In this document: one piece after another, positions 1-43,478 of the stretch | Numbering within the stretch: the first letter of the stretch is position 1 | How the letters are laid out: the number at the start of each line of letters is the position of its first letter | Assembly (NCBI GenBank): GCA_001784285.1 | Contig: MFQC01000009.1 | Span: 8,828-72,827 of the forward strand | Reading direction: 5' to 3' | DNA: 64,000 nucleotides | Source: Candidatus Magasanikbacteria bacterium RIFCSPHIGHO2_02_FULL_48_18 | Lineage (GTDB): Bacteria > Patescibacteriota > Patescibacteriia > Magasanikbacterales > UBA922 | Notes under the pieces: model-generated | What the model saw: only the letters and a program-made list of their open reading frames with translations | What the model was told of the DNA's origin: nothing | The model's database searches: none | Position numbers and translations under genes: made by a program

Positions 1-3000
1 TCCTATAAATCCAAGATATTTTCTTTCTATGCCCTTCATTGCGGCGTCAAATACTTGCTCAGGACTGGTGATATTCTCACCTCTGTCATCTTTCAACACT
101 TTTCCACCCTTCAAAAAAGCGCCTTTCAAAACAACCTGCCCGGCAAAAAGTTCTTGAACCGATGAAGCGGTTTGCCAATCTTTTTTTCCTTTGTTTGGAT
201 CTTCAATTCGAATAATCTTGCCATCCTTATCGGCAAATCCGTCTTTTTTTATTTTTTTAATTTTTCCTTGCCCCTCAAGGACTTGCTGGCCAGCGGACAA
301 CTGAGTAATCGCGTTCCCTTCCGCATCACGCAAAATAATGCCCTGTTCATCATAGTACGAACCCTTTTTTACCGCAGTCATCGCCCCGTATTTATTGTTC
401 AAAAATTCCTCTTGTGTTACCACGGATCCATCTGCATTTTCAATGAGGTGCTCTTTATGTTCAATACCATGAACATTGTTCTCCAATAGCTCGTCGACAC
501 TTGCGGCCTCCCTTTCGCCTCCCTTTCCATCGGGAACCATAAGCACTTTGCCATCCTCACCAACAAATCGCTGTTCTGAATTGAGAACACGCTCGAGCAT
601 CTTAAATTCTCCTTCCGGTCCAAAGGCTCTTTTTGTGGCTTCAAATTCATCCCGTTCTGCCGGGGAAAGACCATTTCTGTATTCTTCATCGGTTTCGTAT
701 CGTTCAATAGCCTGTCCCATGGAGTTAATGGCATCATCAAGATTTGCATTTTCCGCGAGATTACTCAACATGCCATACATGTGTTTTTGCACATCCATGG
801 AAACTCCTTCTTTCCCCTGCATACGCGCCTGCTCTCTATGAAACGCAAGCCGCATCAATGCCGCGCCGCCAAACTCGGCGCGTCCGGCTTCGTCAACGCG
901 GTTTAATGATTCGGCAATACGCTTTGCAGACGCCACAAACGACTGCGCGTAGGTGGCTTTCCCTTGCGCAGGCGCTTCAATAAAGGTGCCTTCCACTTCG
1001 GACTGCGTTTCTCCTTTAACAATGGCCATATTTTCTTCGTGCTCTTCCGCAAATTTTGCCTGTTGAATGGCGCGCGCAAAAACAGACGCGGCGTCATTGC
1101 CTTGAAGAAGCCAGAGATCCAAGTTGCCTTTATCTTTCATTTTTCTAAATTTGTCGAGCGACGACTCAAACACTTTTTCGAGATGCGCATTTTTCATGCC
1201 CTTGACGATGTCCTCGCCGATTTTCGCGCCTATCTCGGCTTCGCCAAGCTGTTCGGCGAGCTTTTTGCCGAGTGGCCCCATCCACACAGCCTCGGTGGCC
1301 TTGCTTTGCGCTTCTTTCAGTTTTTCTTCGGCCACGCGATTGGTTTCATGTTGCACAATATACTGGGCCGCGTTTCGAGAAGCCCTGCTATACACGCCCT
1401 CATCGCGTTTTGGCACCCAAGTGCGTTTGGATCCTTTCCACCGTTCCGGATGATTGATCCCGCTGATAGTGTCCCCGACCGCTTTAACATTTGCGGGGTT
1501 ACTGCGGAATTCTTCAAGACGAGAGTCGCTGTCAATCACCACTTCTTTGCCTCTCTCGTCCTTAATTGTTTTCTTTTGTTTTCTGCGTTTAAATTCTGCT
1601 TTTCCGGCTTCATCCATTCCTTGATACCCATGGTACTCATCGCCATGTTTTTTCTGCATCCACGCGTCAAATTGTTTATTTTGTTGTGCCACAATTTCCG
1701 GGTCCGCCAAAAATTCATCCTCTACCTTTACCTCTTGGTCCGCCCCTATCTGAGTGAATTTCATCCATCCTGACCTCGACTTATCACTGGAAAGAGCGGC
1801 ATACTCCTTATATTCATTAGGATGCTCAACCTCCAGCCATTGTCCAAATTGTTTTAGTTGCTCTGCCGAGACTTCCGGATCCTTCGCAAATTCTTCGTCT
1901 AAGGAACCAAGATCTTTTTGCACCTCAACGGACTTAGTTACTTTTTTCTTTTGTTTGTCAGTGATAAGTTTTGTTTTCCCGGGTTCGTCCGCGGCAGTGT
2001 AGTTCACGTACGCACCCGCATTTTCTTTTTGAAGCCATCGTTCAAATTGTTGTGTTTGTTCAGGGGCAACCATAGAATCTTTTCGAAATTCTTCCAGATG
2101 TTGTTTTTTAAATTCCCATTGTTGGAGCGTATTCATTTCCTTATACCCGTTGTATTGCACCGGATCTTTTGCTTTTATCCAATTTCGAAACTTTTTATCC
2201 TCATCTTCCACAAATTCCGGCGTGTGACGAAACTCGTCAATAAACGAAGGGGCATCTTCTTCCACTTCTTTTTGCTGTTTTACCGTCGTGGTTCGTTTCT
2301 TTTCGCGAAACGCTTTTTTCCCCTCGTCATCCAGCGCGGCATAGCCTTGGTACTCGTCCGCGTGCTCTTTTTCCATCCACCCCTCAAACTCATGATCTTC
2401 CGCGGCGACCACCAATTGGCGCCCTTCTTTGAGAAGGCGTTCTCTGTTTCGATGTTCACGCGACTTTTTGTTTTCCGGACTGCGCATCTGAATCGCGGCC
2501 ATCTCCTGATATTCCGCAAAATTTCTCCGAGCGGTCATGGCATCAAGCCCAACTATACCCACATACTTTTTCTGTTTGATTTTATTCCCATCTTTATCAA
2601 CTTTATCTCTCATTTCATACGCTGTCGTGCCATCCGCGTTCTTTTTTTCCACTCTTTCTTGTTCATATTTAAAGTCGCCTTTTTCATCGTCCCATTCATA
2701 GTCAACCTGGCCCAATCTTTTTAGAATTGGTATTTGGCCAAACACCTTATTAACCAGAGCCGTACCGGCCAAAGACAGAGGGGGTTCATTTTTACTCATG
2801 TCTTTGGCGCGACTGTCTTTTTGCTGTTTTTTTACCGCCTCGACACGATCATCGAGTTTATCCTGATATTCTTCATTATACCCCCCAATAAGAGGGATAT
2901 GACGAATATACTTATTTTGCCGTCGAAACTCATCCAAACGTTTCCCGGCGCGAATCCAACTTCGGCCGCCAATAAAAGGCGCGTTCATAAGGCTCTTCTT

Positions 3001-4125
3001 GCCTTTTTCCAATCCTTTCCCCACCAACCACCGTCCGGCCGCGTACCCGCTCGCGATGGTTGCCACTTTCTTTCCAAAATCAAGGACTCCCCCGACAAAA
3101 CTGCCCCCGACAGCGCCAACTTTTTGGACCGCCGTGAGCCCGACAAACAAAAATGCGATAGCAATAAAAAAATTTGCCATGTTTTCCCACGTGGTCACTT
3201 CGCTTGAGGACACTTTGAGCGTGCCCCCGGGAACGCCTGCCTGCTGAAGCACTTTTTGCGCGTCCGAGCCGTCAATATTGAGTCCCAAATCCGACATGGC
3301 AACGTCGCCCGTTCCAAGCGTGGCAAACGCAAGCCAGAGAAAGAATACCGCGACCGGCGCCACAATCACTTCTTTACCAAACATGGACCACCATTCTTTT
3401 GCGTACTGTTTGGTTTGCGGAATAACGTTCATGATATACGCCATTGGCGACAAAATAATCAACACCCACAATACAATGACCCGGAGTATCATCACAAACA
3501 AATACGCGCCAACAACCGCAAGTCCCATGAGCGCAAAAACAAAGGCCATAACCGCGCCGCCAAAGAGTTTAATGTCAATGCCTCCGGTCATAATATCTTC
3601 ACCGACCACATTGAGAATCGAGTTCATGCGGAGCATTTCAATAAGGTTGCCCCCGGCCGTGTTTTGGATGGCCGTCACAAAGGTCATGGTAAAGATATGC
3701 GCGGCGTCAATAATAAGGCCGGCAATGAGTTTGCTGAAATTGACAAGAAGCGCCGCCAAGATAAAATGCGCAAGCGTTTTTTTCCATTCGTATTGTTCAA
3801 TACCAAGGACCGTGCCAAACGCGATAACAAGCAATACCACCACAAAAAACATATTGGCAACGTCGCGCACCATAAACCAGCCGATGACGACGGTCGGTGT
3901 GTCAACATAGCCATTATATTTTGCGAGTTCGACAAAAAATTTGAAGAAAAACATGGTCAAGCTCATGAGCACAGTGGCAAGCTCAATCAAAATCCACGAC
4001 GCAAAGTGCAAGAGCGCGTCAAAAACGCCGGTTGCGACATCACCCAGCAAATCAAAAATCGCGTTTGCCGGTGTGGCGGTGAAAACCAGCCCGGAGACAA
4101 CAAAAAATAAGAAGATCGGCGTCAT
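1..4125 (-). CDS. Large polytopic membrane protein with a C-terminal charged-repeat tail, possibly TrbL/VirB6-like. The 3' end lies beyond the window start, so more than 1375 aa are encoded here.
   Basis: I translated this by hand. The minus-strand frame is open and stop-free from 4197 down to position 1. The six-frame track omits it, presumably because there is no stop in the window. The start is ATG 4125..4123, giving MTPIFLFFVVSGLVF.... The first roughly 330 aa contain at least eight strongly hydrophobic segments. They are followed by a K/E/D-rich soluble region with recurring motifs (EYQGY, EYHGYQ, EYKEY, WMxKxHxDEY). There is no Shine-Dalgarno site, as with most genes in this window. Confidence 0.8.
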   Translation of the reverse strand, partial: MTPIFLFFVVSGLVFTATPANAIFDLLGDVATGVFDALLHFASWILIELATVLMSLTMFFFKFFVELAKYNGYVDTPTVVIGWFMVRDVANMFFVVVLLVIAFGTVLGIEQYEWKKTLAHFILAALLVNFSKLIAGLIIDAAHIFTMTFVTAIQNTAGGNLIEMLRMNSILNVVGEDIMTGGIDIKLFGGAVMAFVFALMGLAVVGAYLFVMILRVIVLWVLIILSPMAYIMNVIPQTKQYAKEWWSMFGKEVIVAPVAVFFLWLAFATLGTGDVAMSDLGLNIDGSDAQKVLQQAGVPGGTLKVSSSEVTTWENMANFFIAIAFLFVGLTAVQKVGAVGGSFVGGVLDFGKKVATIASGYAAGRWLVGKGLEKGKKSLMNAPFIGGRSWIRAGKRLDEFRRQNKYIRHIPLIGGYNEEYQDKLDDRVEAVKKQQKDSRAKDMSKNEPPLSLAGTALVNKVFGQIPILKRLGQVDYEWDDEKGDFKYEQERVEKKNADGTTAYEMRDKVDKDGNKIKQKKYVGIVGLDAMTARRNFAEYQEMAAIQMRSPENKKSREHRNRERLLKEGRQLVVAAEDHEFEGWMEKEHADEYQGYAALDDEGKKAFREKKRTTTVKQQKEVEEDAPSFIDEFRHTPEFVEDEDKKFRNWIKAKDPVQYNGYKEMNTLQQWEFKKQHLEEFRKDSMVAPEQTQQFERWLQKENAGAYVNYTAADEPGKTKLITDKQKKKVTKSVEVQKDLGSLDEEFAKDPEVSAEQLKQFGQWLEVEHPNEYKEYAALSSDKSRSGWMKFTQIGADQEVKVEDEFLADPEIVAQQNKQFDAWMQKKHGDEYHGYQGMDEAGKAEFKRRKQKKTIKDERGKEVVIDSDSRLEEFRSNPANVKAVGDTISGINHPERWKGSKRTWVPKRDEGVYSRASRNAAQYIVQHETNRVAEEKLKEAQSKATEAVWMGPLGKKLAEQLGEAEIGAKIGEDIVKGMKNAHLEKVFESSLDKFRKMKDKGNLDLWLLQGNDAASVFARAIQQAKFAEEHEENMAIVKGETQSEVEGTFIEAPAQGKATYAQSFVASAKRIAESLNRVDEAGRAEFGGAALMRLAFHREQARMQGKEGVSMDVQKHMYGMLSNLAENANLDDAINSMGQAIERYETDEEYRNGLSPAERDEFEATKRAFGPEGEFKMLERVLNSEQRFVGEDGKVLMVPDGKGGEREAASVDELLENNVHGIEHKEHLIENADGSVVTQEEFLNNKYGAMTAVKKGSYYDEQGIILRDAEGNAITQLSAGQQVLEGQGKIKKIKKDGFADKDGKIIRIEDPNKGKKDWQTASSVQELFAGQVVLKGAFLKGGKVLKDDRGENITSPEQVFDAAMKGIERKYLGFIG

Positions 4126-4293
4126 CCATTTTTTTGCTCGGAAGAGCGACGTTATTTTTTTTCCAACATGCTTCACAGCCAAGAAATCATGGAGTGATCA
4201 ATTGTGAAGAAGTATAGCATAAAAAAGAAAAAAAATGGAGAAAAAATCGTTATTTTGGGGATAGTATTTCATAAACACGTTATCCACTTTTTA

Positions 4294-4325
4294 TCCTTGA
4301 CAAACCTTTGTCACCTTGACAAAAC
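4294..4325. promoter_or_regulatory. Candidate operator: inverted repeat TGACAAA-cc-TTTGTCA plus a third CTTGACAAA half-site.
   Basis: The sequence CCTTGACAAACCTTTGTCACCTTGACAAAACGG lies between the small-RNA locus and the start of the membrane-protein gene. Confidence 0.3.
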
Positions 4326-4399
4326 GGCTTTTTTGTGCTTTAATAGAATTGGAGAATTGTGTTTATTTTTTCGCTTGAAAAAAGCAAAAAGCTCTTTAA

Positions 4400-4519
4400 A
4401 AAAACAAAAAGGCTTGCACACACAAGCCTCCTTCGGTGGTGGACCGTGGGGGAATTGAACCCCAAGAGTGAGGATGGTAAGCCTACTCGTGCACCTGCAC
4501 ACACGGCCCATAGTCCACC
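4400..4519 (-). ncRNA. Small RNA 1, about 120 nt: a tRNA-like or Y-RNA-like element, unclassified.
   Basis: A sigma70 promoter lies upstream on the minus strand: TTGTTG, a 17-nt spacer, TATACT, then 7 T residues to the G start. The transcript begins GGUGGACUA and carries a T-loop-like GGGGUUCAAUUCCCCC hairpin. ACGGUCCACCA near the 3' end pairs perfectly over 7 bp with the 5' GGUGGAC. It ends in an intrinsic terminator, GGCUUGUGUGUGCAAGCC followed by UUUUUGUUUUUUU. No anticodon arm can be folded, so it is not called a tRNA. Confidence 0.5.
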
Positions 4520-4525
4520 AAAAAA

Positions 4526-4554
4526 AGTATACCATAAAAGAAAATCCTCAACAA
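4526..4554 (-). promoter_or_regulatory. Sigma70-type promoter for small RNA 1.
   Basis: On the minus strand, -35 TTGTTG sits at 4549-4554 in plus coordinates. A 17-nt spacer separates it from -10 TATACT at 4526-4531. The presumed start site is 7 nt downstream. Confidence 0.5.
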
Positions 4555-4709
4555 AGAATTTATGTTGAGGACTTTCTCCGGGATTCACCCGACCGAATAT
4601 GCAGTTTTATACGAAGTAGGTTTACCATCCTAAAACAAGGATACCCCATTTTAAAAACCCTGTCAAGTGGAAAAATGATAGATCACTCCATCCAAACAAA
4701 CCAATTGAG

Positions 4710-4738
4710 ATAGAGTAATCCATCGTTCTTTCACAAAA
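4710..4738. repeat. 29-bp direct repeat ATAGAGTAATCCATCGTTCTTTCACAAAA, first copy. The second copy is at 5017-5045. It marks the unit boundary of the tandem duplication.
   Basis: Exact string match between 4710-4738 and 5017-5045. Confidence 0.85.
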
Positions 4739-4860
4739 ACAAAAAGGCTTGCACACACAAGCCTCCTTCGGTGGTGGACCGTGGGGGAATTGAACCCGTT
4801 CCACTGTGTGTCAAGTACAGCATGCTCACCAGATACACTACTGGCCCTTACTAGTCCACC
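4735..4860 (-). ncRNA. Small RNA 2, a diverged tandem paralogue of small RNA 1, about 126 nt.
   Basis: It shares the 5' GGUGGACUA and 64 nt of 3' end with small RNA 1 (T-loop-like hairpin, ACGGUCCACCA, terminator). Repeat A at 4400-4463 equals repeat A at 4735-4798. The middle body is unrelated. An extended -10 (TGTTAATAT) lies upstream at 4867-4875. Confidence 0.45.
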
Positions 4861-5308
4861 AAATTTATATTAACATAAAAATCTCCCCGGAGGAAGATCT
4901 TTACGTTGACACACAGTTTCAACCAGTAGAAATCTAGTTGCTGTACAAAAATACAATATCACATATCTGGAAACTTTGTCAAGCGAAAGCCCGATGGTTT
5001 ACCCGATTAAAATACAATAGAGTAATCCATCGTTCTTTCACAAAATGACAATTCTCTCCATAATGGACGAGAACTGTCTTACAAATACAGCGCGTGTGAG
5101 GCGGAAATTGCTCTGCTTCCGGAAATACCCGGGAGAGAGCCATGAAAGCCTAATAATATTGCGAACTCCTAAAAGCAACACGGCGCCTGCCGAATGGAGC
5201 GGTTGGATGTGTCATCCTGATCAGAATGACATACCCAACTGCTCCACGGACAAGGCGAAACCGTGGGACCACAATGCCGCATCCAGGCGGCGAGACAGGA
5301 GGTGCCAC

Positions 5309-6043
5309 ATGGCACGTTTCATCGCCCTCGCCGCCACCCTGGCGGCGTGCTTCTTCCTCGCGTGCGAGGAGGAAGGGACTGGTCCCACCGACGGGACCAC
5401 TGCGACGACAACGGGCTCCGCCGCAGGCGAGCCCACCACCCCCAGCAACGACGGCAACGACTGCACCGACAACAACCCGTGCACCGAGGAGACGTGCGAC
5501 GGCGACGTTTGCACGACCCATACTGAGTCGTGCAACGACAACGGATGCACCGAGGAATGGTGCAACCAATGGGGGTGCTCCAGTTGCACCAACTGGAGCA
5601 GTGGCGCCTCGGGGTGCACAGGCACCCCGGGCGGCCCTACTGCCCCCATTGTCGACCCCGACCCCCCTGGCGACGACCCCGTCCCCCCGCCGGAGGTCGA
5701 CTGCTCGGCCTGGACAACTCTCCTTTCCGGCACGTTCTACGAGCCGGAGCTGATCGGGGAGTTCGAAGTCCCTGGTTTTATTCAGTACCTCGAACCGGAC
5801 TTCGAGGGGATCGTCGGCGCGGGCTACGGCCTGTGCCGGTCGTCTGTTGATGACGCAATCGGCGTCGTCGACAACGTGTGGGGTGTGCTCGATGGAGCAG
5901 GAAAGAACATCGCCTGTGGACCGTTCCCGGGCGATAGTGTGCTCCACTTCGAGCCGATCGACAGCGACTGCATCAAAATCGGAGGGACTGCCCTTACAAA
6001 CTGGAGCATCCCCAACGATTTTTTGATTGCATGCCGACTGTGA
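5309..6043 (+). CDS. GC-rich lipoprotein that is Cys-, Asp- and Thr-rich, with CxxxNPCTxExC-type repeats.
   Basis: AGGAGG lies 6 nt upstream of ATG 5309. The signal peptide with lipobox reads MARFIALAATLAAC. The repeats read CTDNNPCTEETCDGDVCTTHTESCNDNGCTEEWC. Local GC is roughly 65% against roughly 48% in the flanks. The longer track ORF from 5045 is probably an N-terminal over-extension. Confidence 0.7.
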   Translation: MARFIALAATLAACFFLACEEEGTGPTDGTTATTTGSAAGEPTTPSNDGNDCTDNNPCTEETCDGDVCTTHTESCNDNGCTEEWCNQWGCSSCTNWSSGASGCTGTPGGPTAPIVDPDPPGDDPVPPPEVDCSAWTTLLSGTFYEPELIGEFEVPGFIQYLEPDFEGIVGAGYGLCRSSVDDAIGVVDNVWGVLDGAGKNIACGPFPGDSVLHFEPIDSDCIKIGGTALTNWSIPNDFLIACRL

Positions 6044-6326: not shown

Positions 6327-9300
6327 TTACTTCTGCTCCGGCACCACAATAATAACACCATGATAATAGGTCCATCGTTCTTTGTTATAATTATCCTCAC
6401 ACTCTTTATTTCCTCCGGCATTAAAATCATTATACAACCCCTCCTCACTCGGAATCATATCCTTATTCTTCCCGCCCGGAATCCATGCCGGGCCGCCGGT
6501 CGCGGAACTCTTTGACGCGTTGCACCAACCCCAGTTGTCAAGGACCTGTACCCGCGGGCGGTACGCGCACACTTTGGACGGTTCATAGCCAACCAAATCC
6601 ACGACGCCTTTTTTCTGCCACTCGGTGAGCGCGGAAAAATCCACATTCGCGCTTCCTGAAGAACATTCATACGTATACTCGGCCTTAAACGGCTTGTCGA
6701 CGCACGCGCGGTCGCTGTTGCCAAAGCGCGGTTTATTGTATGAATCAGTGTATGTTTGTTGGTACGATGGAAGATCTTTTTCCTTATAACACAAGAGGTC
6801 GTCAAATCCGAGAGCATGCGGACAATCGTCTTCTTTGTCGTACGCTTTGCAGGTCATAAGGTCGGGAAGCTGTTCTGAGCCGCCGCCCCAACACACCCCA
6901 ATATCGCCTTCGGAGAATTCGCAGAACGGTTTGTAGTTTTCGTAATACCCATGCGTTTTTTCGTTCGTAATATAACCGGTTGCCGAATCGTCCCAATCAA
7001 TCATAATGCGCCGGATGGGCATATGATTATCGTCGGCCGCGACAAAAAATTCGGCTGTGGCTTTGAACGTTTTTTGGGCTATATGCATGGTCGGTTCCGG
7101 CGCGTTGTTTGGCGCTTCGTCCGGATCATTATTGGGATCACGATCATAATTATACTTTGTGCCATTTTTTCCTGTAACAGTAAAATTGTGTTTGTCACCC
7201 GCAGTACATGGTCCATGTTCTCCATAACAACGGTATGGATTGAGCGAATAGACAACAGGCGGGCGATTATTGGTTGGTTTGTTATACTCTGATCCTTCAT
7301 CCCATGCCGTTTTACTCTCAAACTCATCCGGCTTCTCGCCCGTTTTGCGCATTTTTATAGAAAATGTTTTTGCAAACAATTGAGCGAGCCGACTCTTGCC
7401 AATATAATCCGGATCATAACTAGCATAATATGACCCAATGCCAAATTCCATATCACCGGGAATCGTTAAACCATCGCCCAAACTACTGCATCGGAAATCA
7501 TTGGTACCACTCCAATCCGGGATTGTTTGCCACATGTAATCCCATAAATAATCTGAACCACTTGGACCAATATTATCATCCGCCACGGGTTCGGCATTCA
7601 GTTCATTCGTACCCGCATAGATATTTTTTCCAAACAATTTTCCGCATGCGTATGGAACGCCCTGGTTATCATTAAAAGTATATTTGCGTAAGATACTATC
7701 GGTTTCCAAATCATCTTCAATTAAATCGAGAGACCCATATGGTGGATTTTCTGTTTCAAACCATTTTACCTCATCACTGAAAAATTTTGGTTCGCCTACA
7801 TCCCAGTGGGGTGATGGCGGATAAATTTGAGATGCCTGCCACACACGATTGGTCCACGCCTTATTCGTCGGTTGATCCGTATCAATCTTGGTGTCATCGT
7901 AGACGCTCGCAAATTCAGTACATCGGGGGTTGAGCTCAACCAGAACAGAGAGAAGCGCATGTCTTCCTACAGCATGATTTTTAACATCGTCATCATCATT
8001 TTTATATCTCTCGCTATATTTATACCACAAATTACCCCCGTCATAAGAGAGTTTTCCATCTCCATTATTGAATCGAATCATCCACACATTGTATGGCGCT
8101 TTCGCTTGTGTTTCTATAGGCACATTATACAAACTTTCTTCAATTATACTACGATATATTGTGTTTCCATCATCTTCTCCACTTTGGAAAATAGCGATAC
8201 CATAGACATGCTTTCCGTCATTAGAATCCCCTGTATACGCATCTTTGTTTATTCCAAAAAATTGCACAGCCTGAAATTTCTTTGTTTTGCCGAGAGCAAA
8301 TTCTTTCACACTAAAAGCATACGTTTCATCTTTTGGCGCATCCTCATGAAGAGGAGACTGGGGATTGTCTATTTTCATTGCTTGGAGATTTTCAAAATCT
8401 ATTTCAAGCCCTGGATAAAAATGAGGTAAATTGAGTTCATTATAAGCACCCGGATCTCCTGCCAACATCATCGGGCCCATATGAAATTTCTTGACATCTT
8501 GTTCATACAGATCCCCCTGCATTCGATAATCCTTGCCAAAGGTACCAATAATATACTTGGCAATAGGAGTCTTTCCTTTTCCATCTTCATCCCAAGCCTT
8601 TGTCTCTTCTACGTCGGTATATATATAACCGGAAGCATCCGTGACCGGAATTTTTTCGCTCAGCATGGACCACCAGCCCGGGCTGTCAATCCATAATACT
8701 TCCGTATTGGGACTTCCTTTCCCATCGTTAATGCCATGCCAACCATACAATTTCATAAACGTATATATTTTTTTCTGGTACGCTAAAGACTGCAATTTCA
8801 AATCGCTTCCGAGCTCGCCGGTAGTCGCCCCCTTTGGAATATTCATGGGTGGGAGATCGGCGATATTATCATATTGCGTACCGCCATCTGACCACCATGT
8901 AACCCAAAGAGGAGGCGCATTCAAAAGTGAAGTCCAGCGCTCATCGCCAGTATCCCCCGCAAGATCGTCTATTTCTGGACCCAAAATATCTTCCAATTCA
9001 ATATATACCGGAGCATCGCTATCATCATAGGTAAGAGAATTAGAATGAAAAATTTTATAATACATATCCTTTGAATAAGTTAACCCAGAGCTAGGATAAG
9101 CATAATTTATTGCTTTCAACATTTCGACACCACTCAACACCATACTTTGGTTATAGGCCGGCGCGGCGGCGGCGACCGTGCAATACACCTGGCCCTTGCC
9201 ATTATTGGAATCCAATGCCACATCATAGCCGGTTGTCGGATCGTTGTTATAAATATCAACACCGGTCACATTGACGTCCAACGGCAACCATGTTTGACAT

Positions 9301-12300
9301 GCATAGAGGCCGGTGCCACCTCCCAATGGGCGGCTGAGATCGCGCTCCAGACAAAAACCGCTTGTTCCCACGTGCATGGATTTGTTGGTATAAGGCGATT
9401 CTTTGCAAATCAATCCGTCGCCGCACTGACCGTCGTCGGTTTGGCATGGCTTGCCTATATTTCCCGCGTCTTCCACTTCGCCCGACCCCGAAAGGCCCGA
9501 ATCCGCCGGCAATTGACACGTTCTCGGACCGTGGCTTGCTTGCCCGAGCGGCCAATACCCAACATTGCCATCCGCATATTCGTTAACGAGATAACTGCAC
9601 GAACAGTCGCCCTTTTGGCAGATATTCGCTTTGTCGTATCCTTCTATTTTTTGCGTATATAATTTGAAAAACGAAGGCGACGGCGTGTTTCCTTCCACGT
9701 CTTTTTGTAGATCTTTTGCAAAATTGACCGGAAACGGACTGTCTTCTTCCGGATAGACTTTACAGCTTGCCGGGATAAGATCATCCTTGGTAAATTCATC
9801 CTTTTCACCCAAGCCCGAAATTGGGTAGACGCATTCGCCGCTGTAACACTTTCCTTTGCTGTCCTCGCCGCATAAGGCTCCATCATTTTTCGGCACTACA
9901 TTGCCAGAGACTGTTTTAAAACAAGAACTTTGATCCGGATTGGACGACGAATCGGCATAAAATTTGTACGCGAGGTAGCTGGTTTTCCCGGTCGTGCCGC
10001 TGTCAATGCCAATATAGGTAAAATCATTGATTTGGTATCGGTTAAAAAGCGAGTAGCCCGTATACTCCGGATCGCCATACCACGTCGTGTCGCGGGCAAT
10101 GTATTTTTCTTCAGTCAAAAACTTGGACTCATGCGGGTAATCGCTCTGTTCCACCCAATCCACGCAATCTTTGCCATCTCGTTCGGTGCATGCCCGATAA
10201 TCTTCGCACACGTCAAGCGTCAGTCCCGTTTCTTGCTGTTGTTTTGTCTGCGACGACCGGCAGGCCAGCCACTCGGCGCATACGCGATCGCGATTCACTT
10301 TCAAAATGATATTGCTGTCCCCGCCGGACACGCTACTTGCTTGTTTTGGCGAGACCAAATTGTCATTATTTTTTTCGCTGTCCGTATACGTCGCCTGGGC
10401 AAGATACGGACGGGTTGACTCGTCCACCTTATTCAACAACACGCACCCTTCTTTTAAGCTCACCTTGCCGCCGCATTCGTCAATACGATTGGTAATAGTA
10501 CTGTTGAAAATAACGGGATATGGGGTGCCGTTCGGATATTTGGCCGTTTTGTCAACCGGATCAACCAACTCGGTACAGCCATTAAATTGTTCCGGGCACT
10601 GCCCCACCAATCCATCATATTGAAATGCGCCATTGGAATAAATACCAAACGATGTGTCGGCAAGAATATACCCCGGATAACACGGAATTTTATTTTTATT
10701 TTGGCACATGCCGGAAGCGCATTCTTGATCGGCAGTACACAATGATCCGTTGGTACATTCGCCCACATCTTTCTTTACCCACCCGGAACGGGTAATACCG
10801 GTCTTGTCGACAAAAGACTCCTGATAGACGCATTGCGCGTTGCCATTTTTGAGCGGATCTTTAAAGAAAGACACCGTGTTTCCGGAATTGAACTGGCCGC
10901 ATCCGAGCAAATCCTCGCGGCACAGCACGCCTTCCGGACCAAGATATTTGTCCGGATTGTTTTTGATGTACTCTTTCTCAAAAGAATATGATCCCGCCGC
11001 AGTAAACCCGTCCGGGACCGCCTGTTCGCGCAATGCGATTTTTTCACATCCCAAAAATGCCTGATCGCACACGGTATTTTTGGTTTTGGTAAGGAAAATG
11101 GGGTCGTTTTCGGGCGTATCCGCGCCAATCAGCACGCTCGAATCATCCACAAACAAAATATCCGGCGAGGTATTGGTGCTGTTTTGTTGCACGGCAAGAA
11201 ATGTCACAAACGGCTGCAACTCAAATTTCCCAAAAGAATACGTTGCATCGGGCAATGCTATGGGGCCGGGAATATAACATATTTTTGAACCGGTTGGAGG
11301 CGTGCAGGTATGGTTGGCTCCATTCAAATTAACCGTGCAGGTATTCCCAGACGAGGTATTTTTATAGCACGCAATGTTGTAGACGATCCGGTCTTCCGCG
11401 CCATCCATGGCAATGGTATTTTGGGTGTCATATAGCGCGGTACATCCGACTGCTTCTGGCCGGCAGAGCGACGCAAAACCGGTCGCGTACCACAGCGTAT
11501 TTTGCGTATCCGTGTACATTTGACATCCCAACGCTTCGCCCGGCAACCCGTCGGTCGGGTCGCTGTCGCACGCTATAGGCGCGTTTGCACTCACCAATCC
11601 GCCCTCATACTCTATCGTGCGTTGCCATGAATTTTTGATAAGATGATATTGATCCACGAGACGCGTCAGGCGCACATTGTCCAGAAAATATCCTCCCGGT
11701 GTACCTTCGCGTTTGAATACCAAAGAAACCGGATCGGTTGTGTTGCCGGTAAATTGAACAGGACCGATATGATACAATTGCCAGGACTCCTGGAGCTCGA
11801 TTTTATTTTCCTTGTTCAAGAGAGGATCAAAGGTAAAATACCAGCTCGTCTCTGTCTTGCCATTTTGCGACAAGTTGATGGACAATTGTTGCCCCGCGAC
11901 GCCGCGCGCCCAGAACGAAAGCTCGTACCAATTGGCGGCATCCTCTGCATTGCCGCTTTGGATGGTTCCGGTTGCAATGATCCGTTCCACTTTTTCGGTA
12001 TTGACCAATAACGAATACAGCCCGACTTGGATAGATTCGGCCGCGACGGAAATGCTTCCGGCGGCGATATCGACTTTTTTCCAATCTTTTTTGGCATCGT
12101 TCAGGGCGTTTGCGTCGTCTCCGGACGGTTCAAAAATATCAAGAAATACCTGTTCGACATTGTTTCCCGAATTGCCTACATACAAACGGCACCCGCTGGC
12201 TTCTTTGGGACAAGCATTTGCCTGGCCGGGCGTATTGATGGTGTTATACACGCACGATCCTCCGGAGGCCGGATTATTTTCGTCGGGTTTGTATGCTCCG

Positions 12301-15300
12301 CCGTTCGCGCACACCATACAGCTCGCGGTACTCTCTGCCCACAATCCTTTTCGTTCGGCGCACAATTGTTTGGACGTATCGAGCGACAAAAGATCGTCTT
12401 TGACCAAGGTTACACTGGTTTTGCGCAATGGATGGCACAATTCATCGACCAGCGCGACCTCCGACAATACGCGATAAAACACCTGCCCGCTTTTATCATA
12501 GAGCGCACGACAATCAAGGCTTGCCGCGTCAATACTCCCGGGATTATTCACTAATATGCTATAGGTATCTTCATTGCACACGGCCTGTAAATTTTTGAGC
12601 GCCATATAACTCGTGTCCGCGTACGCGGGGGATCCTTTCGGGTAAGCGGCCGTGAGCGCATTTTTTACCACTGTATCTGTGACTAAATCAAACATCTTCG
12701 TGAGATACGAATTTTTGGTATCGTCGATCTGGAGCAGGCGATGCGTCCGCAAGACATACCCCTTCTGCACCGACCCTTCCCACGAATAAAATATTTTTTC
12801 ATTATCATCGGCCGGTTTTTCACAATAGGTGAGATCCGTGTAATATTCCAAACCTTCGCCGCCTTTTTCCACAGTATCGATATTGGTAAATTCATCACAG
12901 CCTTCATACGCAACCGTACAGGAGAGTCCCTGTTCTTTCATGAGATCTTGCGCGTATGTCGGCACAAAATACAATGGAAATTGCGCCCCCTCAAAATTGG
13001 TCTCCGCTTGCTTGTACGCGTCATACCCGACACAGCTCAGATCGCACTGATTATTTCCAATAAGCGCGGGAACCGCAGGTCCGCCCGCAAGCGGGGTATA
13101 GGCATCGCACCCAACTTCTTCGGCAACGCACGCTCCCGCAAAGTTGCCGCATTCGGGATTGCCGGAAAGAAAATTCAAATCCGCTTTTTTCTTTGGGTAT
13201 TCAATCGCCTCGGTTCCCGCATTGGTATCATAACATCCCAAATAGTCCGGCGCTTTTTTGAGATACAGGGTATTCTCCGGGCTCGTATCTTTCACATACG
13301 CGTTTGCCGCCGCGTCGAATACGCGAGGATAAAAGGCCGAACAGCCCTCATTGTCTCCGGTACACGTTTGCGAAGCGATTTTTGCATTGAAATAAAGTGT
13401 TGGATTTCTCCCCGCTTTTTTATACTCTTTCCATATTCCCGAATCGAGCATGCCCGGATATACCCATGCTTCATTGACCTGTTCCGCCCCATACGCGGAA
13501 CACCCCACGGATTGGGCCGAACACTCCCCGTACTCAAGCGTTCGCGTGAGGTAGGATGACACTGTGTTCGTTCCCGCGTTGACAAATGTTTGACAGGAAG
13601 TAAATGGCAAAGGACACGAATCTCCCGGTATTCTCCAGGTATTTTCTTCCTTTGTGCAGTATCCATAGAGTTGCGGCGCCTCGCACACGCTGTTTGGCCC
13701 TTCTGAAATGCATGTAGAAAAATCAAGACATTCTTCCATGCGCTTTGCGCCATCGCTCGTCAGCAATTGATCGCTATACCCATAGGCCATACAGCGGGTT
13801 TCCGGAACTCGAATCACCCAGTTCGGATCAATAAGATGACAATATGGATATTCCGCGCTCGGCGCTCCGCTTGGGTGGCACTGATCAAATCCTTTGACAA
13901 CCTCTTCAAGCTTCCATGGGTTGTCGGACGGCGACTTGAGCGCGGCAATTTCAAACCCAATGGGAAGAATGCGCGCTTTTCGTATTTTTTGGATATTGGA
14001 ATAACAATAGGCCTCGCGGAAACAATTGCGGTCCCGATTTTGCAATTCTCGTTTGGGAGAAATCAACTCCCAGTCGCCATGCAAAAACGACCCTTTCGTG
14101 TCAGCGAGCGCTTCGCCAATGGTCATGGCCCGGCCGGTCTTTGCCTGCGCGATGGCGTTTGCAAGCCCTTGTTCCATGACACAATTATTGATGCCAACCG
14201 GAGTATTGCCCTCCGGACACGCGGTAAATTGCTGAACGATATTAAAATTTTCTATCTGAACAGGCGTCTTGGTCAATAAAAAGCCAAAGACCTGTTGTGC
14301 AATGCTCTTTTTACTTGCTCCGCTTGGCGATTGGGAATACGGGTTGACCACCGAATCCGGATTTGCCGCGTCTTCTCCTCCTCCGCCTGAGGAAGGAAAC
14401 AATCCTCCGGTCAATAATTGCTCCAACAACTGCGTCGTCAAGGTATTCAAAAATACCGACGCGGCATACGGAAGTATTTGAATGGTTGGCGCGGCGTAAA
14501 TAGCACTAATCTGCCCGGCAGTAATTTCTTTTGATTTCAATCCAGTCAATTCCTTCGATTCTTCTTTGACCAGTTGTGCCGGTGAAATAGTTGTTCCGGA
14601 AATAAGTTCTTTCACTGCCTTAAAGCCGTCTCCTTCCATCCGCTCTTGGAGAGCGCCCAATTCCTGCTGGAAACTTTTCTGCCGCACCTGGCCCAAAGCG
14701 CCGAGCGAAACTCCAAAATCCGTACTGTCCGCGTTGAGAGAGGCGCTAAATGATTCGGCAATAAATTTTTGTCCGTAGGGACCGAATTTTTCTTCAAACG
14801 CTTCCGGGCTATACGCATTTTTGAGATCTTGCCAGGAACAATCCAGCCCTCCACCCATAAATTTTTGACTTAATCCCAACTGCAGACTGATTTGCAACGC
14901 TAAATTTGGCTGACAAATATCTATCCCAAATGCTTTTTCCCCCAACGTCTGGATGGATTGCGCGGCGGCATCAAGCGCCACATTTTCAAAATAGGTGGCC
15001 GCCCCTTCCTGAAAGACCAACGGCTCTTCGCCAGCCGCTTTGGTGGAAAGCCATGTCGCGGCGTCGTACGCCAACTTATTTAAAAAATAGGATACACCTT
15101 CAATGAGGGCGCTTAATCCCCCAGCAAGGAGACTCTGCCACATGTTGAAATCCAATTTTTTTTCCGCTTTTTCGGCCAGCGCTCTGGCTTCATTTCTGGC
15201 TTGAATGGCTTCGCGTTGGGCAGTCGCAGGCGCGTCAGTCCATTGTGCAAAGACCATTGTCGGAAAAAAAGAAAAAAGAAAAAGACAGAGACAAAAAATT

Positions 15301-15362
15301 GGCTTCATTTTTGAAGAAAAAAAATGGAAATAATGTTGTTTTCTTGAAAAGAAAGGAATCAT
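6327..15362 (-). CDS. Giant secreted Cys-rich surface protein, 3011 aa.
   Basis: A single uninterrupted ORF. The N-terminus MIPFFSRKQHYFHFFSSKMKPIFCLCLFLFSFFPTMVFAQ looks like a signal peptide; MKP at 15308 is an alternative start. The ATG overlaps the upstream gene's TGA, giving ATGA at 15359-15362. The protein has many Cys and Gly/Asn/Asp-rich stretches. No confident domain could be assigned by eye. Confidence 0.8.
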   Translation of the reverse strand: MIPFFSRKQHYFHFFSSKMKPIFCLCLFLFSFFPTMVFAQWTDAPATAQREAIQARNEARALAEKAEKKLDFNMWQSLLAGGLSALIEGVSYFLNKLAYDAATWLSTKAAGEEPLVFQEGAATYFENVALDAAAQSIQTLGEKAFGIDICQPNLALQISLQLGLSQKFMGGGLDCSWQDLKNAYSPEAFEEKFGPYGQKFIAESFSASLNADSTDFGVSLGALGQVRQKSFQQELGALQERMEGDGFKAVKELISGTTISPAQLVKEESKELTGLKSKEITAGQISAIYAAPTIQILPYAASVFLNTLTTQLLEQLLTGGLFPSSGGGGEDAANPDSVVNPYSQSPSGASKKSIAQQVFGFLLTKTPVQIENFNIVQQFTACPEGNTPVGINNCVMEQGLANAIAQAKTGRAMTIGEALADTKGSFLHGDWELISPKRELQNRDRNCFREAYCYSNIQKIRKARILPIGFEIAALKSPSDNPWKLEEVVKGFDQCHPSGAPSAEYPYCHLIDPNWVIRVPETRCMAYGYSDQLLTSDGAKRMEECLDFSTCISEGPNSVCEAPQLYGYCTKEENTWRIPGDSCPLPFTSCQTFVNAGTNTVSSYLTRTLEYGECSAQSVGCSAYGAEQVNEAWVYPGMLDSGIWKEYKKAGRNPTLYFNAKIASQTCTGDNEGCSAFYPRVFDAAANAYVKDTSPENTLYLKKAPDYLGCYDTNAGTEAIEYPKKKADLNFLSGNPECGNFAGACVAEEVGCDAYTPLAGGPAVPALIGNNQCDLSCVGYDAYKQAETNFEGAQFPLYFVPTYAQDLMKEQGLSCTVAYEGCDEFTNIDTVEKGGEGLEYYTDLTYCEKPADDNEKIFYSWEGSVQKGYVLRTHRLLQIDDTKNSYLTKMFDLVTDTVVKNALTAAYPKGSPAYADTSYMALKNLQAVCNEDTYSILVNNPGSIDAASLDCRALYDKSGQVFYRVLSEVALVDELCHPLRKTSVTLVKDDLLSLDTSKQLCAERKGLWAESTASCMVCANGGAYKPDENNPASGGSCVYNTINTPGQANACPKEASGCRLYVGNSGNNVEQVFLDIFEPSGDDANALNDAKKDWKKVDIAAGSISVAAESIQVGLYSLLVNTEKVERIIATGTIQSGNAEDAANWYELSFWARGVAGQQLSINLSQNGKTETSWYFTFDPLLNKENKIELQESWQLYHIGPVQFTGNTTDPVSLVFKREGTPGGYFLDNVRLTRLVDQYHLIKNSWQRTIEYEGGLVSANAPIACDSDPTDGLPGEALGCQMYTDTQNTLWYATGFASLCRPEAVGCTALYDTQNTIAMDGAEDRIVYNIACYKNTSSGNTCTVNLNGANHTCTPPTGSKICYIPGPIALPDATYSFGKFELQPFVTFLAVQQNSTNTSPDILFVDDSSVLIGADTPENDPIFLTKTKNTVCDQAFLGCEKIALREQAVPDGFTAAGSYSFEKEYIKNNPDKYLGPEGVLCREDLLGCGQFNSGNTVSFFKDPLKNGNAQCVYQESFVDKTGITRSGWVKKDVGECTNGSLCTADQECASGMCQNKNKIPCYPGYILADTSFGIYSNGAFQYDGLVGQCPEQFNGCTELVDPVDKTAKYPNGTPYPVIFNSTITNRIDECGGKVSLKEGCVLLNKVDESTRPYLAQATYTDSEKNNDNLVSPKQASSVSGGDSNIILKVNRDRVCAEWLACRSSQTKQQQETGLTLDVCEDYRACTERDGKDCVDWVEQSDYPHESKFLTEEKYIARDTTWYGDPEYTGYSLFNRYQINDFTYIGIDSGTTGKTSYLAYKFYADSSSNPDQSSCFKTVSGNVVPKNDGALCGEDSKGKCYSGECVYPISGLGEKDEFTKDDLIPASCKVYPEEDSPFPVNFAKDLQKDVEGNTPSPSFFKLYTQKIEGYDKANICQKGDCSCSYLVNEYADGNVGYWPLGQASHGPRTCQLPADSGLSGSGEVEDAGNIGKPCQTDDGQCGDGLICKESPYTNKSMHVGTSGFCLERDLSRPLGGGTGLYACQTWLPLDVNVTGVDIYNNDPTTGYDVALDSNNGKGQVYCTVAAAAPAYNQSMVLSGVEMLKAINYAYPSSGLTYSKDMYYKIFHSNSLTYDDSDAPVYIELEDILGPEIDDLAGDTGDERWTSLLNAPPLWVTWWSDGGTQYDNIADLPPMNIPKGATTGELGSDLKLQSLAYQKKIYTFMKLYGWHGINDGKGSPNTEVLWIDSPGWWSMLSEKIPVTDASGYIYTDVEETKAWDEDGKGKTPIAKYIIGTFGKDYRMQGDLYEQDVKKFHMGPMMLAGDPGAYNELNLPHFYPGLEIDFENLQAMKIDNPQSPLHEDAPKDETYAFSVKEFALGKTKKFQAVQFFGINKDAYTGDSNDGKHVYGIAIFQSGEDDGNTIYRSIIEESLYNVPIETQAKAPYNVWMIRFNNGDGKLSYDGGNLWYKYSERYKNDDDDVKNHAVGRHALLSVLVELNPRCTEFASVYDDTKIDTDQPTNKAWTNRVWQASQIYPPSPHWDVGEPKFFSDEVKWFETENPPYGSLDLIEDDLETDSILRKYTFNDNQGVPYACGKLFGKNIYAGTNELNAEPVADDNIGPSGSDYLWDYMWQTIPDWSGTNDFRCSSLGDGLTIPGDMEFGIGSYYASYDPDYIGKSRLAQLFAKTFSIKMRKTGEKPDEFESKTAWDEGSEYNKPTNNRPPVVYSLNPYRCYGEHGPCTAGDKHNFTVTGKNGTKYNYDRDPNNDPDEAPNNAPEPTMHIAQKTFKATAEFFVAADDNHMPIRRIMIDWDDSATGYITNEKTHGYYENYKPFCEFSEGDIGVCWGGGSEQLPDLMTCKAYDKEDDCPHALGFDDLLCYKEKDLPSYQQTYTDSYNKPRFGNSDRACVDKPFKAEYTYECSSGSANVDFSALTEWQKKGVVDLVGYEPSKVCAYRPRVQVLDNWGWCNASKSSATGGPAWIPGGKNKDMIPSEEGLYNDFNAGGNKECEDNYNKERWTYYHGVIIVVPEQK

Positions 15363-18283: not shown

Positions 18284-18285
18284 AA

Positions 18286-40670: not shown

Positions 40671-40830
40671 ATAGATTATCCGATTATTCCTTTAAAAAAG
40701 GAGGAAATAAAATGAATGATGTTTATTCCCTTTCTTAAGGGGAAGCTACTATTAAGAGACGGGCGGTCGGTACGTTTCTTACTCATGACACTAACATATA
40801 GTATTTCTTGCCTCAACAGAGCAAAAATTG

Positions 40831-42537: not shown

Positions 42538-42540
42538 ATA

Positions 42541-43266: not shown

Positions 43267-43316
43267 ATGTCTGTTGGATATTTCTTTCCACAAAATCATT
43301 CTTATCCATTTTCTTT

Positions 43317-43450: not shown

Positions 43451-43478
43451 GATTGGAATGAAAAAGTATTGTCTATTG

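What the first reader, a model, noticed from the sequence alone, without database searches (positions are those of the whole stretch)
1..4125. Unannotated CDS of more than 1375 aa: polytopic membrane domain fused to a long K/E-rich repeat tail, possibly VirB6/TrbL-like.
The six-frame track shows only short or implausible plus-strand ORFs here. Hand translation of the minus strand gives a continuous frame from 4125 to beyond position 1. It has eight or more transmembrane-like helices in the first roughly 330 aa. The rest is a highly charged region with imperfect repeats (…WMEKEHADEYQGY…, …WMQKKHGDEYHGYQ…, …WLEVEHPNEYKEY…). Multi-transmembrane N-terminal domains with large hydrophilic C-terminal extensions are typical of VirB6/TrbL conjugation and type IV secretion channel components, which are common in small episymbiotic bacterial genomes. 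It could equally be a novel envelope protein. The missed gene also shows that the ORF track is incomplete at the window edges.
Basis: partly seen in the sequence, partly recalled or inferred. Interest (0 to 1): 0.55.

Follow-up and report, generated by a model that had tools for sequence, protein, structure and literature searches.

The report
Extended VirB6-like type IV secretion subunit
The open frame is real and is the first 1375 residues of an 1813-residue membrane protein of a Candidatus Magasanikbacteria bacterium: the VirB6-like channel subunit of the chromosomal type IV secretion system already described in Patescibacteria, carrying a long tail found only in its own clade and of unknown function.

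Summary
Observation confirmed. Window 4125->1 (minus strand) is an unbroken 1375-codon frame. It has a signal peptide, about 7 further hydrophobic helices in the first 340 aa, then a charged tail with five tandem repeats.

The window is GenBank MFQL01000003.1 (Candidatus Magasanikbacteria). There the gene is 1813 aa and is annotated 'hypothetical protein'. It looked unannotated only because the ORF list omits frames that run off the window edge.

- 8 of 32 close homologue N-domains (~50% identical) match Pfam TrbL.
- An AlphaFold model's only confident PDB matches are TrwI/VirB6 of plasmid R388.
- Immediately downstream, just outside the window, lie PrgI/VirB3-like, TrsD/TraC-like and VirB4-like ATPase genes. 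The same order occurs in distant homologue loci.

The window's own sequence does not reach Pfam's threshold. A profile comparison with proteobacterial VirB6 is not significant.

The locus fits the chromosomal, relaxase-less Patescibacteria T4SS published in 2025, and the architecture fits 'extended VirB6'. What is new is modest. The tail holds two conserved, confidently modelled domains (C1, C2) with no PDB match. C1 occurs in only 121 of 1.84 billion representative proteins. The tail is probably cytoplasmic; this is inferred. Interest is moderate to low.

The parts
1..4125 (-). First 1375 codons of an 1813-aa CDS: extended VirB6-like T4SS membrane subunit (GenBank OGH79156.1, 'hypothetical protein'). 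The remaining 438 codons lie left of the window. The start may be TTG 4182 or GTG 4176.
   Evidence: start codon
4060..4125 (-). Signal-peptide-like hydrophobic helix, aa 1-22, ending PANA|IF (A-x-A type site)
   Evidence: homologues have the same h-region and A-x-A after a basic n-region
3106..4059 (-). Polytopic VirB6/TrbL-like domain, aa 23-340, about 7 hydrophobic helices. About 50% identical across more than 100 homologues. Family-invariant residues include P227 (window 3445-3447) and W246 (W245-W246 at window 3388-3393).
2866..3105 (-). Basic, glycine-rich juxtamembrane segment, aa 341-420 (net charge +9), conserved in the family. Taken as the cytoplasmic side of the last transmembrane helix.
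2392..2865 (-). Charged K/R/E/D-rich linker, aa 421-578, poorly conserved
1456..2391 (-). Five tandem imperfect repeats of 48-73 aa, aa 579-890 (F-x-x-W-[MLI]...Y-x-x-Y ... EEF-x-x-x-P). Units at window 2194-2391, 2050-2193, 1852-2049, 1675-1851 and 1456-1674.
   Evidence: z up to 21 against shuffles; only 8 of 120 homologues match this region
709..1338 (-). Conserved tail domain C1, aa 930-1139, all-alpha, with an invariant DD at aa 1130-1131
1..708 (-). Start of the variable G/K/D/E-rich region (aa 1140-1375 of 1140-1522). The conserved domain C2 (aa 1523-1743) and the C-terminus lie outside the window.
6327..15362 (-). Syntenic upstream neighbour: 3011-aa secreted, Cys-rich (3.2%) giant protein with a signal peptide and no Pfam match. 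It is 38-43% identical over most of its length to the giants that precede the VirB6-like gene in homologue loci, so it probably belongs to the same locus.

Best explanation
The frame encodes the VirB6-like polytopic membrane subunit of the chromosomal type IV secretion system (T4SS) of a Candidatus Magasanikbacteria bacterium (Patescibacteria/CPR). The T4SS is related to those of monoderm (Gram-positive) bacteria. The protein is of the 'extended VirB6' type.

**Shown**
- A signal peptide plus about 7 hydrophobic helices form a conserved N-terminal domain.
- Close relatives of that domain match Pfam TrbL, and its model resembles R388 TrwI/VirB6.
- The gene heads a conserved block: VirB6-like, two unknown proteins, PrgI/VirB3-like, TrsD-like, then a VirB4-like ATPase.

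**Inferred**
- The N-domain oligomerises in the cytoplasmic membrane with VirB3 and VirB4 to form the translocation channel, as VirB6 does in studied systems.
- The roughly 1470-aa tail starts on the cytoplasmic face. The evidence is the strongly basic segment after the last helix, plus homology with the A. tumefaciens VirB6 topology, in which the conserved Trp loop is cytoplasmic and is followed by two helices and a cytoplasmic C-terminus.
- The tail consists of a species-specific charged spacer with five repeats, followed by two folded domains (C1 all-alpha, C2 alpha/beta) restricted to this clade.
- The folded domains most likely act as a cytoplasmic docking or regulatory platform for the ATPase or for substrates.

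The system is probably not conjugative, since no relaxase or coupling protein was found nearby. It more likely serves interaction with, or uptake from, a host cell. Its cargo is unknown.
For: - **Open frame and full length:**
- **Family:** 672 hits; those that carry a source name are nearly all Candidatus Magasanikbacteria. Lengths are about 860-2160 aa, and the N-terminal ~400 aa are about 50% identical.
- **TrbL:** 8 of 32 homologue N-domains match; P0005 scores 27.9 and P0059 27.4 bits against a cut-off of 25.9. 27 of 120 homologues have precomputed TrbL or TrbL_3 hits.
- **Fold:** the AlphaFold N-domain model has pLDDT 75. Foldseek's top five PDB hits are all TrwI/VirB6, with probability 0.96-1.00 and E 5e-3 to 5e-2.
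- **Synteny, own contig:** PrgI (E 1.2e-8), a TrsD/TraC-like protein and a VirB4-like ATPase follow within 4 kb.
- **Synteny, homologues:** loci L001, L003 and L004 have the same order, with comF-like genes next.
- **Topology:** the family-average net charge is +6.9 after the last helix and -3.3 in the preceding variable loop.
- **Signature residues:** the P227...W245/246 loop aligns with the P181...W199 region of TrwI. The Trp loop is described as cytoplasmic in A. tumefaciens VirB6 (PMC7648143).
- **Tail domains:** C1 is found in 79 and C2 in 75 of the 120 homologues, always in the same order. They are modelled at pLDDT above 90.
- **Literature:** Patescibacteria T4SS with VirB4, TrsD, PrgI and VirB6, mostly without a relaxase, and with comF nearby in ABY1 loci (PMC12102498). 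Extended VirB6 is a recognised subtype (PMC12857230).
Against: - The window protein itself has no Pfam or NCBIfam hit.
- A sequence profile of the family finds no VirB6 chain in the PDB.
- hhalign against five R388/IncN-type VirB6 proteins gives only E 0.03 over 51 columns.
- Foldseek TM-scores to TrwI are low, 0.28-0.50.
- The cytoplasmic location of the tail is inferred only. Experimental work on other extended VirB6 proteins places the C-terminal extension outside the cytoplasm: Anaplasma VirB6-3 and VirB6-4, and F-plasmid TraG (PMC7648143).
- The docking role is speculation. The tail has no match to any solved structure or profile.
Confidence: 0.85

Rival explanations
1. Same VirB6-like subunit, but the long tail is extracytoplasmic. 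In this reading it is a surface-exposed stalk, adhesin or released fragment that reaches the host cell, as proposed for Rickettsiales extended VirB6 proteins and for the F-plasmid TraG C-terminal domain.
For: - Extended VirB6-3 and VirB6-4 C-terminal repeat regions of Anaplasma were trypsin-accessible on intact cells, and the C-domain of F TraG acts outside the cytoplasm (PMC7648143).
- The charged spacer gives compositional matches to TolA-like K/E/A-rich helical regions that span an envelope.
- The repeats vary between species, as surface-exposed regions often do.
- The number of transmembrane helices is uncertain, because two hydrophobic helices are 40-45 residues long.
Against: - The 60-80 residues right after the last hydrophobic helix are strongly basic: +9 in this protein and +6.9 on family average. 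The loop before that helix is acidic and variable.
- This fits the positive-inside rule for a cytoplasmic C-terminus.
- It also fits the A. tumefaciens VirB6 order: cytoplasmic Trp loop, two helices, cytoplasmic end.
- No adhesin-type domain (Ig, FN3 and the like) is present in the tail, whereas the neighbouring secreted giant proteins are Cys-rich or carry such domains.
Confidence: 0.2
2. A conjugative-transfer (mating-pair formation) protein of an integrated mobile element, moving DNA between cells as classical TrbL/VirB6 proteins do.
For: The family name and the neighbouring VirB3- and VirB4-like genes are those of conjugation machines. Patescibacteria VirB4 is phylogenetically close to monoderm conjugation systems (PMC12102498).
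Against: - Among the genes that carry Pfam hits, none is a relaxase, coupling protein, integrase or other mobile-element gene. This holds for the own-contig stretch examined and for the homologue loci (about 10 kb each side of the homologous gene). Several neighbours have no Pfam hit at all.
- The flanks are housekeeping genes: ksgA, prfA-like, groEL, aminoacyl-tRNA synthetases, nusA and yidC.
- The locus is syntenic across species that share only about 45-50% identity, which points to vertical inheritance.
- The published survey finds no relaxase in most Patescibacteria T4SS clusters (PMC12102498).
Confidence: 0.07
3. A novel envelope protein unrelated to VirB6. Its polytopic domain only superficially resembles VirB6, and its place next to T4SS genes is coincidental.
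For: The window protein has no significant direct sequence match to any VirB6 profile or structure. Foldseek TM-scores are low.
Against: - Homologues about 50% identical over the whole domain pass Pfam's TrbL threshold.
- VirB6 is the only high-probability fold match in the PDB.
- The gene order with PrgI, TrsD-like and VirB4 is conserved in three independent distant loci as well as in the window's own contig.
Confidence: 0.05

Closest known systems
VirB6 homologues of the chromosomal Patescibacteria T4SS (Quinonero-Coronel et al. 2025, PMC12102498; essential in Southlakia epibionticum, Wang et al. 2023 as cited there)
   Same: - Chromosomal locus in a CPR bacterium.
- VirB6-like gene close to PrgI/VirB3, TrsD and VirB4 genes.
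- No relaxase or coupling protein detected in the stretches examined.
- comF-like gene near the cluster in the homologue loci, as reported for class ABY1.
- ksgA in the vicinity (window 24790-25707).
   Different: - That survey detected VirB6 in only 480 cases and does not describe C-terminal extensions.
- The window protein itself escapes Pfam TrbL.
- It carries a roughly 1470-aa tail with two clade-restricted domains.
- A conserved 3000-aa secreted protein lies directly upstream.
'Extended VirB6' proteins (Alvarez-Martinez and Christie 2009, as summarised in PMC12857230): Rickettsiales VirB6-1 to VirB6-4, F-plasmid and SXT TraG
   Same: Five or more hydrophobic helices of the TrbL/VirB6 type, followed by a large hydrophilic C-proximal region. 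In Anaplasma VirB6-3 and VirB6-4 this region also contains tandem repeats that vary between strains (PMC7648143).
   Different: - No sequence similarity in the extensions.
- Those systems are in diderm proteobacteria.
- Their extensions are reported or proposed to be extracytoplasmic, whereas here the charge distribution argues for a cytoplasmic tail.
- The tail here contains two folded, conserved domains rather than repeats alone.
TrwI/VirB6 of plasmid R388 (PDB 7o3v, 8rt9, 8rtd)
   Same: Best and only confident structural match of the N-domain model. The P...W signature region aligns.
   Different: - TrwI is 342 aa and has no tail.
- Sequence similarity is not significant (E 0.03-0.1).
- TM-scores are only 0.28-0.50.
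- TrwI sits under a VirB5 pentamer in a diderm machine, and no VirB5 was seen here.
VirB6-like proteins of monoderm conjugation systems (PrgH of pCF10; TcpH of pCW3)
   Same: Monoderm-type T4SS context with PrgI-like VirB3 and VirB4. From my own knowledge, not tested here: TcpH combines a VirB6-like multi-helix region with a C-terminal cytoplasmic domain.
   Different: No detectable sequence relation was tested or found here. In the published survey most Patescibacteria VirB6 proteins matched the MPF-T VirB6 profile rather than PrgH (PMC12102498).

Membership tests
VirB6/TrbL (Pfam PF04610) | Polytopic inner-membrane protein with at least 5 hydrophobic helices | tested here: met
   Signal peptide plus about 7 hydrophobic helices in aa 1-340
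VirB6/TrbL (Pfam PF04610) | The protein itself scores above the family profile's threshold | tested here: not met
   No TrbL hit for the whole protein or for aa 1-420, even at E up to 10. HMMER's filters may hide weak hits.
VirB6/TrbL (Pfam PF04610) | Unambiguous homologues score above the profile's threshold (transitive homology) | tested here: met
   8 of 32 N-domains (44-58% identical to the window protein) hit TrbL at E of 0.01 or better. P0005 scores 27.9 and P0059 27.4 bits against a cut-off of 25.9. 27 of 120 have precomputed TrbL or TrbL_3 hits.
VirB6/TrbL (Pfam PF04610) | Conserved Trp in the central loop after a conserved Pro-containing helix | tested here: inconclusive
   P227 and W246 are invariant in the family. 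P227 and W245 align with P181 and W199 of TrwI, but the hhalign match is not significant (E 0.1 and 0.03).
VirB6/TrbL (Pfam PF04610) | Fold similarity to a solved VirB6 | tested here: met
VirB6/TrbL (Pfam PF04610) | Encoded with VirB4 and VirB3 homologues | tested here: met
   In the window's own contig, PrgI (E 1.2e-8), a TrsD/TraC-like protein and a VirB4-like ATPase follow within 4 kb. The same order is found in L001, L003 and L004.
Extended VirB6 subtype | Large hydrophilic central or C-proximal domain added to the VirB6 helices | tested here: met
   About 1470 hydrophilic residues follow aa 340. Definition taken from PMC12857230.
Patescibacteria-type chromosomal T4SS (PMC12102498) | Chromosomal cluster with VirB4, TrsD, PrgI/VirB3 and VirB6, and no relaxase nearby | tested here: met
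   Housekeeping flanks. No relaxase or T4CP family among the Pfam hits of called genes in the loci examined; several neighbours have no Pfam hit.
Patescibacteria-type chromosomal T4SS (PMC12102498) | VirB4 falls in the Patescibacteria clade of the VirB4 tree | not tested
   No phylogeny was made. Only 198 aa of the VirB4-like gene were available as DNA.
Conjugative T4SS (mating-pair formation plus relaxase and coupling protein) | Relaxase and VirD4/TcpA-type coupling protein associated with the locus | tested here: not met
   None found in the 64-kb window, in the 5.8 kb to its left, or within about 10 kb each side of the homologous genes. The rest of the genome was not searched.

The most novel reading that the evidence does not exclude
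The clade-restricted C1-C2 module at the end of the tail could be a built-in cytoplasmic substrate receptor or regulator. It would take over the role of the coupling protein missing from this relaxase-less T4SS. Alternatively, it could be a cargo domain that is cleaved off and delivered to the host. Either way, it would be a new way of wiring a VirB6 channel to its substrates, carried by two domains with no relative among solved structures.
Probability: 0.15. Interest if true: 0.65.

Novelty: new variant of a known kind. Interest (0 to 1): 0.35.

Why it matters
The T4SS of Patescibacteria is essential for epibiotic growth in the one species tested, and reviews call its role 'completely unknown' (PMC11665869, PMC12857230). 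The same reviews state that nobody knows what the added domains of extended VirB6 proteins do.

This locus offers a concrete case in the ABY1/Magasanikbacteria lineage:
- a VirB6 that standard profiles miss;
- a long tail whose two folded domains are confidently modelled, yet match nothing solved;
- those domains exist in only about 120 protein clusters worldwide.

It also shows that VirB6 is probably under-counted in CPR surveys that rely on single-sequence profile hits. The finding itself, however, is a member of a published system, and the gene is already in GenBank as a hypothetical protein. Its value is in annotation and hypothesis-building, not discovery of a new kind of system.

Tried and rejected
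- **Extending the contig by DNA pattern.** Exact search of the window's first 80 bases in genome contigs and metagenome contigs found nothing. Looking up window proteins by exact sequence solved it instead.
- **Family sequence profiles against the PDB.** No VirB6 chain appeared for the N-domain. The full-length profile gave only compositional K/E-rich hits such as TolA and Pescadillo, which I reject as low-complexity matches. Nothing appeared for C1.
- **hhalign of the family against R388 TrwI.** Tested alone and with four IncN or Burkholderia VirB6 proteins; E 0.1 and 0.03, not significant.
- **Predicting the tail of the window's own protein.** I modelled the tail of homologue P0002 instead (42-50% identical to the window protein over shared parts).
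- **Foldseek of the tail model against the PDB.** Best E 0.25, so no match.
- **Weak hits dismissed.** PapD_C, DUF4880 and QatD on the tail are below thresholds and lie in charged sequence.
- **Pseudogene or assembly error.** Rejected, because the same protein and DNA occur in independent assemblies.
- **P0001 (1159 aa, 99% identical).** This is a truncated read-derived variant, not evidence for a shorter gene.

Full report

Yes. Translating window 1-4125 on the minus strand gives 1375 codons without a stop. Looking up the neighbouring 3011-aa protein by exact sequence identified the window as GenBank MFQL01000003.1 (assembly GCA_001783045.1, 77,323 bp), with window position 1 at record position 8829. 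A second look-up reached 5.8 kb beyond the left edge.

The gene continues for another 438 codons, 1813 aa in all. The exact protein is on record on 10 contigs from NCBI, JGI, ENA and Logan, named 'hypothetical protein [Candidatus Magasanikbacteria bacterium]'. Its DNA is identical in two assemblies. It is therefore neither a sequencing artefact nor truly unannotated. The plus-strand ORFs in the region (nearly all TTG-started) are antisense shadows.

Other points of the observation:
- **Helices.** Hydropathy and an AlphaFold model give a signal-peptide-like helix (aa 1-22, PANA|IF) and about seven further hydrophobic helices up to aa 340.
- **Repeats.** Pairwise scores reach 21 standard deviations above shuffles.
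- **Start codon.** Homologues carry about 28 extra basic N-terminal residues. An in-frame TTG (4182) or GTG (4176) would supply such an n-region, so the annotated ATG at 4125 may be slightly too short (inference).

**2. What is it?**

*Sequence family.* A search of 5.8 billion proteins gave 672 hits. Those that carry a source name are nearly all Candidatus Magasanikbacteria, and lengths run from about 860 to 2160 aa. Only the first ~400 residues are well conserved, at about 50% identity.

*Match to TrbL/VirB6.*
- The window protein itself hits no Pfam or NCBIfam model.
- 8 of 32 homologue N-domains hit Pfam TrbL/VirB6 (PF04610), two of them above the gathering score.
- 27 of the 120 listed homologues carry precomputed TrbL or TrbL_3 hits.
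- An AlphaFold2 model of aa 1-400 (pLDDT 75) has the TrwI/VirB6 chains of the R388 T4SS as its five best Foldseek matches in the PDB. Probabilities are 0.96-1.00 and E 5e-3 to 5e-2. Apart from further TrwI chains, nothing else exceeds probability 0.5. TM-scores are modest, 0.28-0.50.
- Direct profile comparison with R388/IncN-type VirB6 is not significant (E 0.03). It does align the family-invariant P227 and W245 (next to the invariant W246) with the Pro...Trp signature of TrwI.
- A family profile finds no PDB chain by sequence.

*Gene context, which settles the matter.* In the window's own contig the genes that follow are:
1. a 428-aa protein with no Pfam hit;
2. a 439-aa protein with no Pfam hit;
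3. PrgI/VirB3-like, 152 aa (PF12666, E 1.2e-8);
4. a TrsD/TraC-like protein, 230 aa;
5. a VirB4-like ATPase, 609 aa (DUF87, AAA_10, P-loop_TraG).

Homologue loci that share only 45-50% identity keep the same order. They add a comF-like gene after the ATPase and a giant protein of more than 3000 aa before the VirB6-like gene. The window's 3011-aa upstream protein (6327-15362) is 38-43% identical to those giants over most of its length. It has a signal peptide and 3.2% Cys.

The rest of the window is housekeeping: ksgA, a release factor, groEL, pgi, nusA, yidC, several aminoacyl-tRNA synthetases, and a PBP1-type enzyme next to an alpha-2-macroglobulin. None of the genes that carry Pfam hits is a relaxase, coupling protein or integrase.

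**3. The tail**

BLAST and iterated HMMs over the 120 homologues divide it as follows:

| Segment | Residues | Character |
|---|---|---|
| Juxtamembrane | 341-420 | Basic, net +9; family mean +6.9 |
| Linker and repeats | 421-890 | Poorly conserved K/E-rich linker, including the five repeats; matched in only 8 of 120 homologues |
| C1 | 930-1139 | Conserved domain, found in 79 of 120 homologues |
| Variable region | 1140-1522 | G/K/D/E-rich |
| C2 | 1523-1743 | Conserved domain, found in 75 of 120 homologues; outside the window |

C1 and C2 always occur in the same order.

An exhaustive HMMER search with a C1 profile found only 121 proteins among 1.84 billion cluster representatives. Nearly all are 1000-2100 aa long with C1 at about residues 600-1400. 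C1 is therefore confined to this clade of extended VirB6-like proteins.

The window's own tail could not be submitted for modelling because part of it lies outside the window. I modelled the tail of homologue P0002 instead (42-50% identical to the window protein over shared parts). The model has pLDDT 78, with C1 (all-alpha) and C2 (alpha/beta) mostly above 90. Foldseek found no PDB match (best E 0.25). Sequence profiles found only compositional hits, or none. The whole protein has no cysteine.

**4. How it most likely works**

*Shown:* the architecture, the family and the synteny.

*Inferred from established T4SS knowledge:* the N-domain assembles in the cytoplasmic membrane with VirB3 and VirB4 as the translocon.

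*Inferred topology:*
- N-terminus outside after signal-peptide cleavage, then seven spans.
- The P...W loop (aa 236-249) faces the cytoplasm.
- The acidic, variable loop (aa 272-314) faces outside.
- The basic segment after the last helix faces the cytoplasm.

This agrees with the positive-inside rule. It also agrees with the A. tumefaciens VirB6 arrangement, in which the Trp loop is cytoplasmic (PMC7648143). The roughly 1470-aa tail is therefore probably cytoplasmic. I put this at about 0.7-0.75, given that the protein is VirB6-like. Its folded C1 and C2 domains would be held on a flexible charged spacer, plausibly docking the ATPase, the two unknown neighbours, or substrates. That last step is speculation.

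The main rival is an extracytoplasmic tail, as reported for Anaplasma VirB6-3 and VirB6-4 and for F TraG (PMC7648143).

A conjugative role is unlikely:
- no relaxase or coupling protein was seen nearby;
- the flanks are housekeeping genes;
- synteny is conserved across species.

**5. Comparison with what is known**

The locus matches the chromosomal, mostly relaxase-less T4SS of Patescibacteria described by Quinonero-Coronel et al. 2025 (PMC12102498). That description includes VirB4, TrsD, PrgI/VirB3 and VirB6, with comF commonly nearby in class ABY1 and ksgA often in the vicinity. The system's genes, virB6 included, are essential in Southlakia epibionticum, and its role is unknown (PMC11665869, PMC12857230).

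The architecture is the recognised 'extended VirB6' subtype, whose extra domains have no known function (PMC12857230). That survey detected VirB6 in only 480 cases and does not discuss C-terminal extensions. The window protein itself escapes Pfam, so such genes are probably under-counted.

**6. Verdict**

The object is a variant of a known kind: a Patescibacteria T4SS VirB6 with a tail restricted to its own clade and structurally unmatched. It is useful for annotation and as a lead on what extended VirB6 tails do, but it is not a new kind of system. Interest 0.35.

Noticed in passing
window 4395-4960 (minus strand): Two tandem tRNA-like genes. Each has its own TTGACA-type promoter-like site, and both share an identical 5' GGTGGAC and an identical 3' stretch of about 70 nt (T-arm, CCA end and terminator hairpin), but their middles differ. 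ARAGORN calls copy A tRNA-Ser(tga) at 4772-4847. Rfam scores both below threshold (tRNA 21.8 bits against 29; tRNA-Sec 23.9 against 47), and no tRNA reaches gathering score anywhere in the 64 kb.
   Followed up: partly
window about 4394-4728; L008 versus L009: The 335-bp unit carrying tRNA-like copy B is absent from a second assembly of the same species (GCA_003485625.1), although the adjacent VirB6-like gene is 100% identical. This looks like an insertion or deletion by recombination between the ~70-nt identical 3' ends.
   Followed up: partly
window 5045-6043 (+): A 332-aa ORF, called as a gene in GenBank, with a lipoprotein-like N-terminus and a Cys-, Thr-, Gly- and Pro-rich sequence. It has no Pfam hit. 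It lies in a locally GC-richer stretch (0.50 against about 0.47), on the opposite strand between the giant gene and the VirB6-like gene. Homologue loci have a small opposite-strand ORF (143-152 aa) at this position instead.
   Followed up: no
window 6327-15362 (-): A 3011-aa secreted, Cys-rich protein with no Pfam domain is conserved directly upstream of the VirB6-like gene in distant loci (38-43% identity over most of its length). It may be a surface or adhesin component linked to the T4SS.
   Followed up: partly
L008:1833-4449 (just left of the window): Two conserved proteins lie between the VirB6-like and PrgI-like genes. They are 428 aa and 439 aa, have no Pfam hit and no hydrophobic segment; the 439-aa one is largely P/S/A-rich. 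Counterparts of 427-507 aa and 375-419 aa occupy the same positions in homologue loci.
   Followed up: no
window 16175-24771: A bifunctional PBP1-type transglycosylase/transpeptidase with a PBP-C-terminal domain (702 aa, + strand) lies back-to-back with a 2161-aa bacterial alpha-2-macroglobulin. This pairing is known from diderm bacteria and is seen here in a CPR genome.
   Followed up: no
window 4204-4458 (+): An 84-aa GTG-started ORF is a called gene in the public records. It overlaps the terminator and 3' part of tRNA-like copy B on the other strand and is probably spurious.
   Followed up: no
window 38559-49184 (-): A run of large surface-type proteins: 1901 aa with FN3 and Big_13 domains, 703 aa with CARDB, and 568 aa with DUF5667 and CarboxypepD_reg. 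They sit next to an ECF sigma factor (42541-43038) and an O-antigen-ligase-like protein (49144-50586).
   Followed up: no
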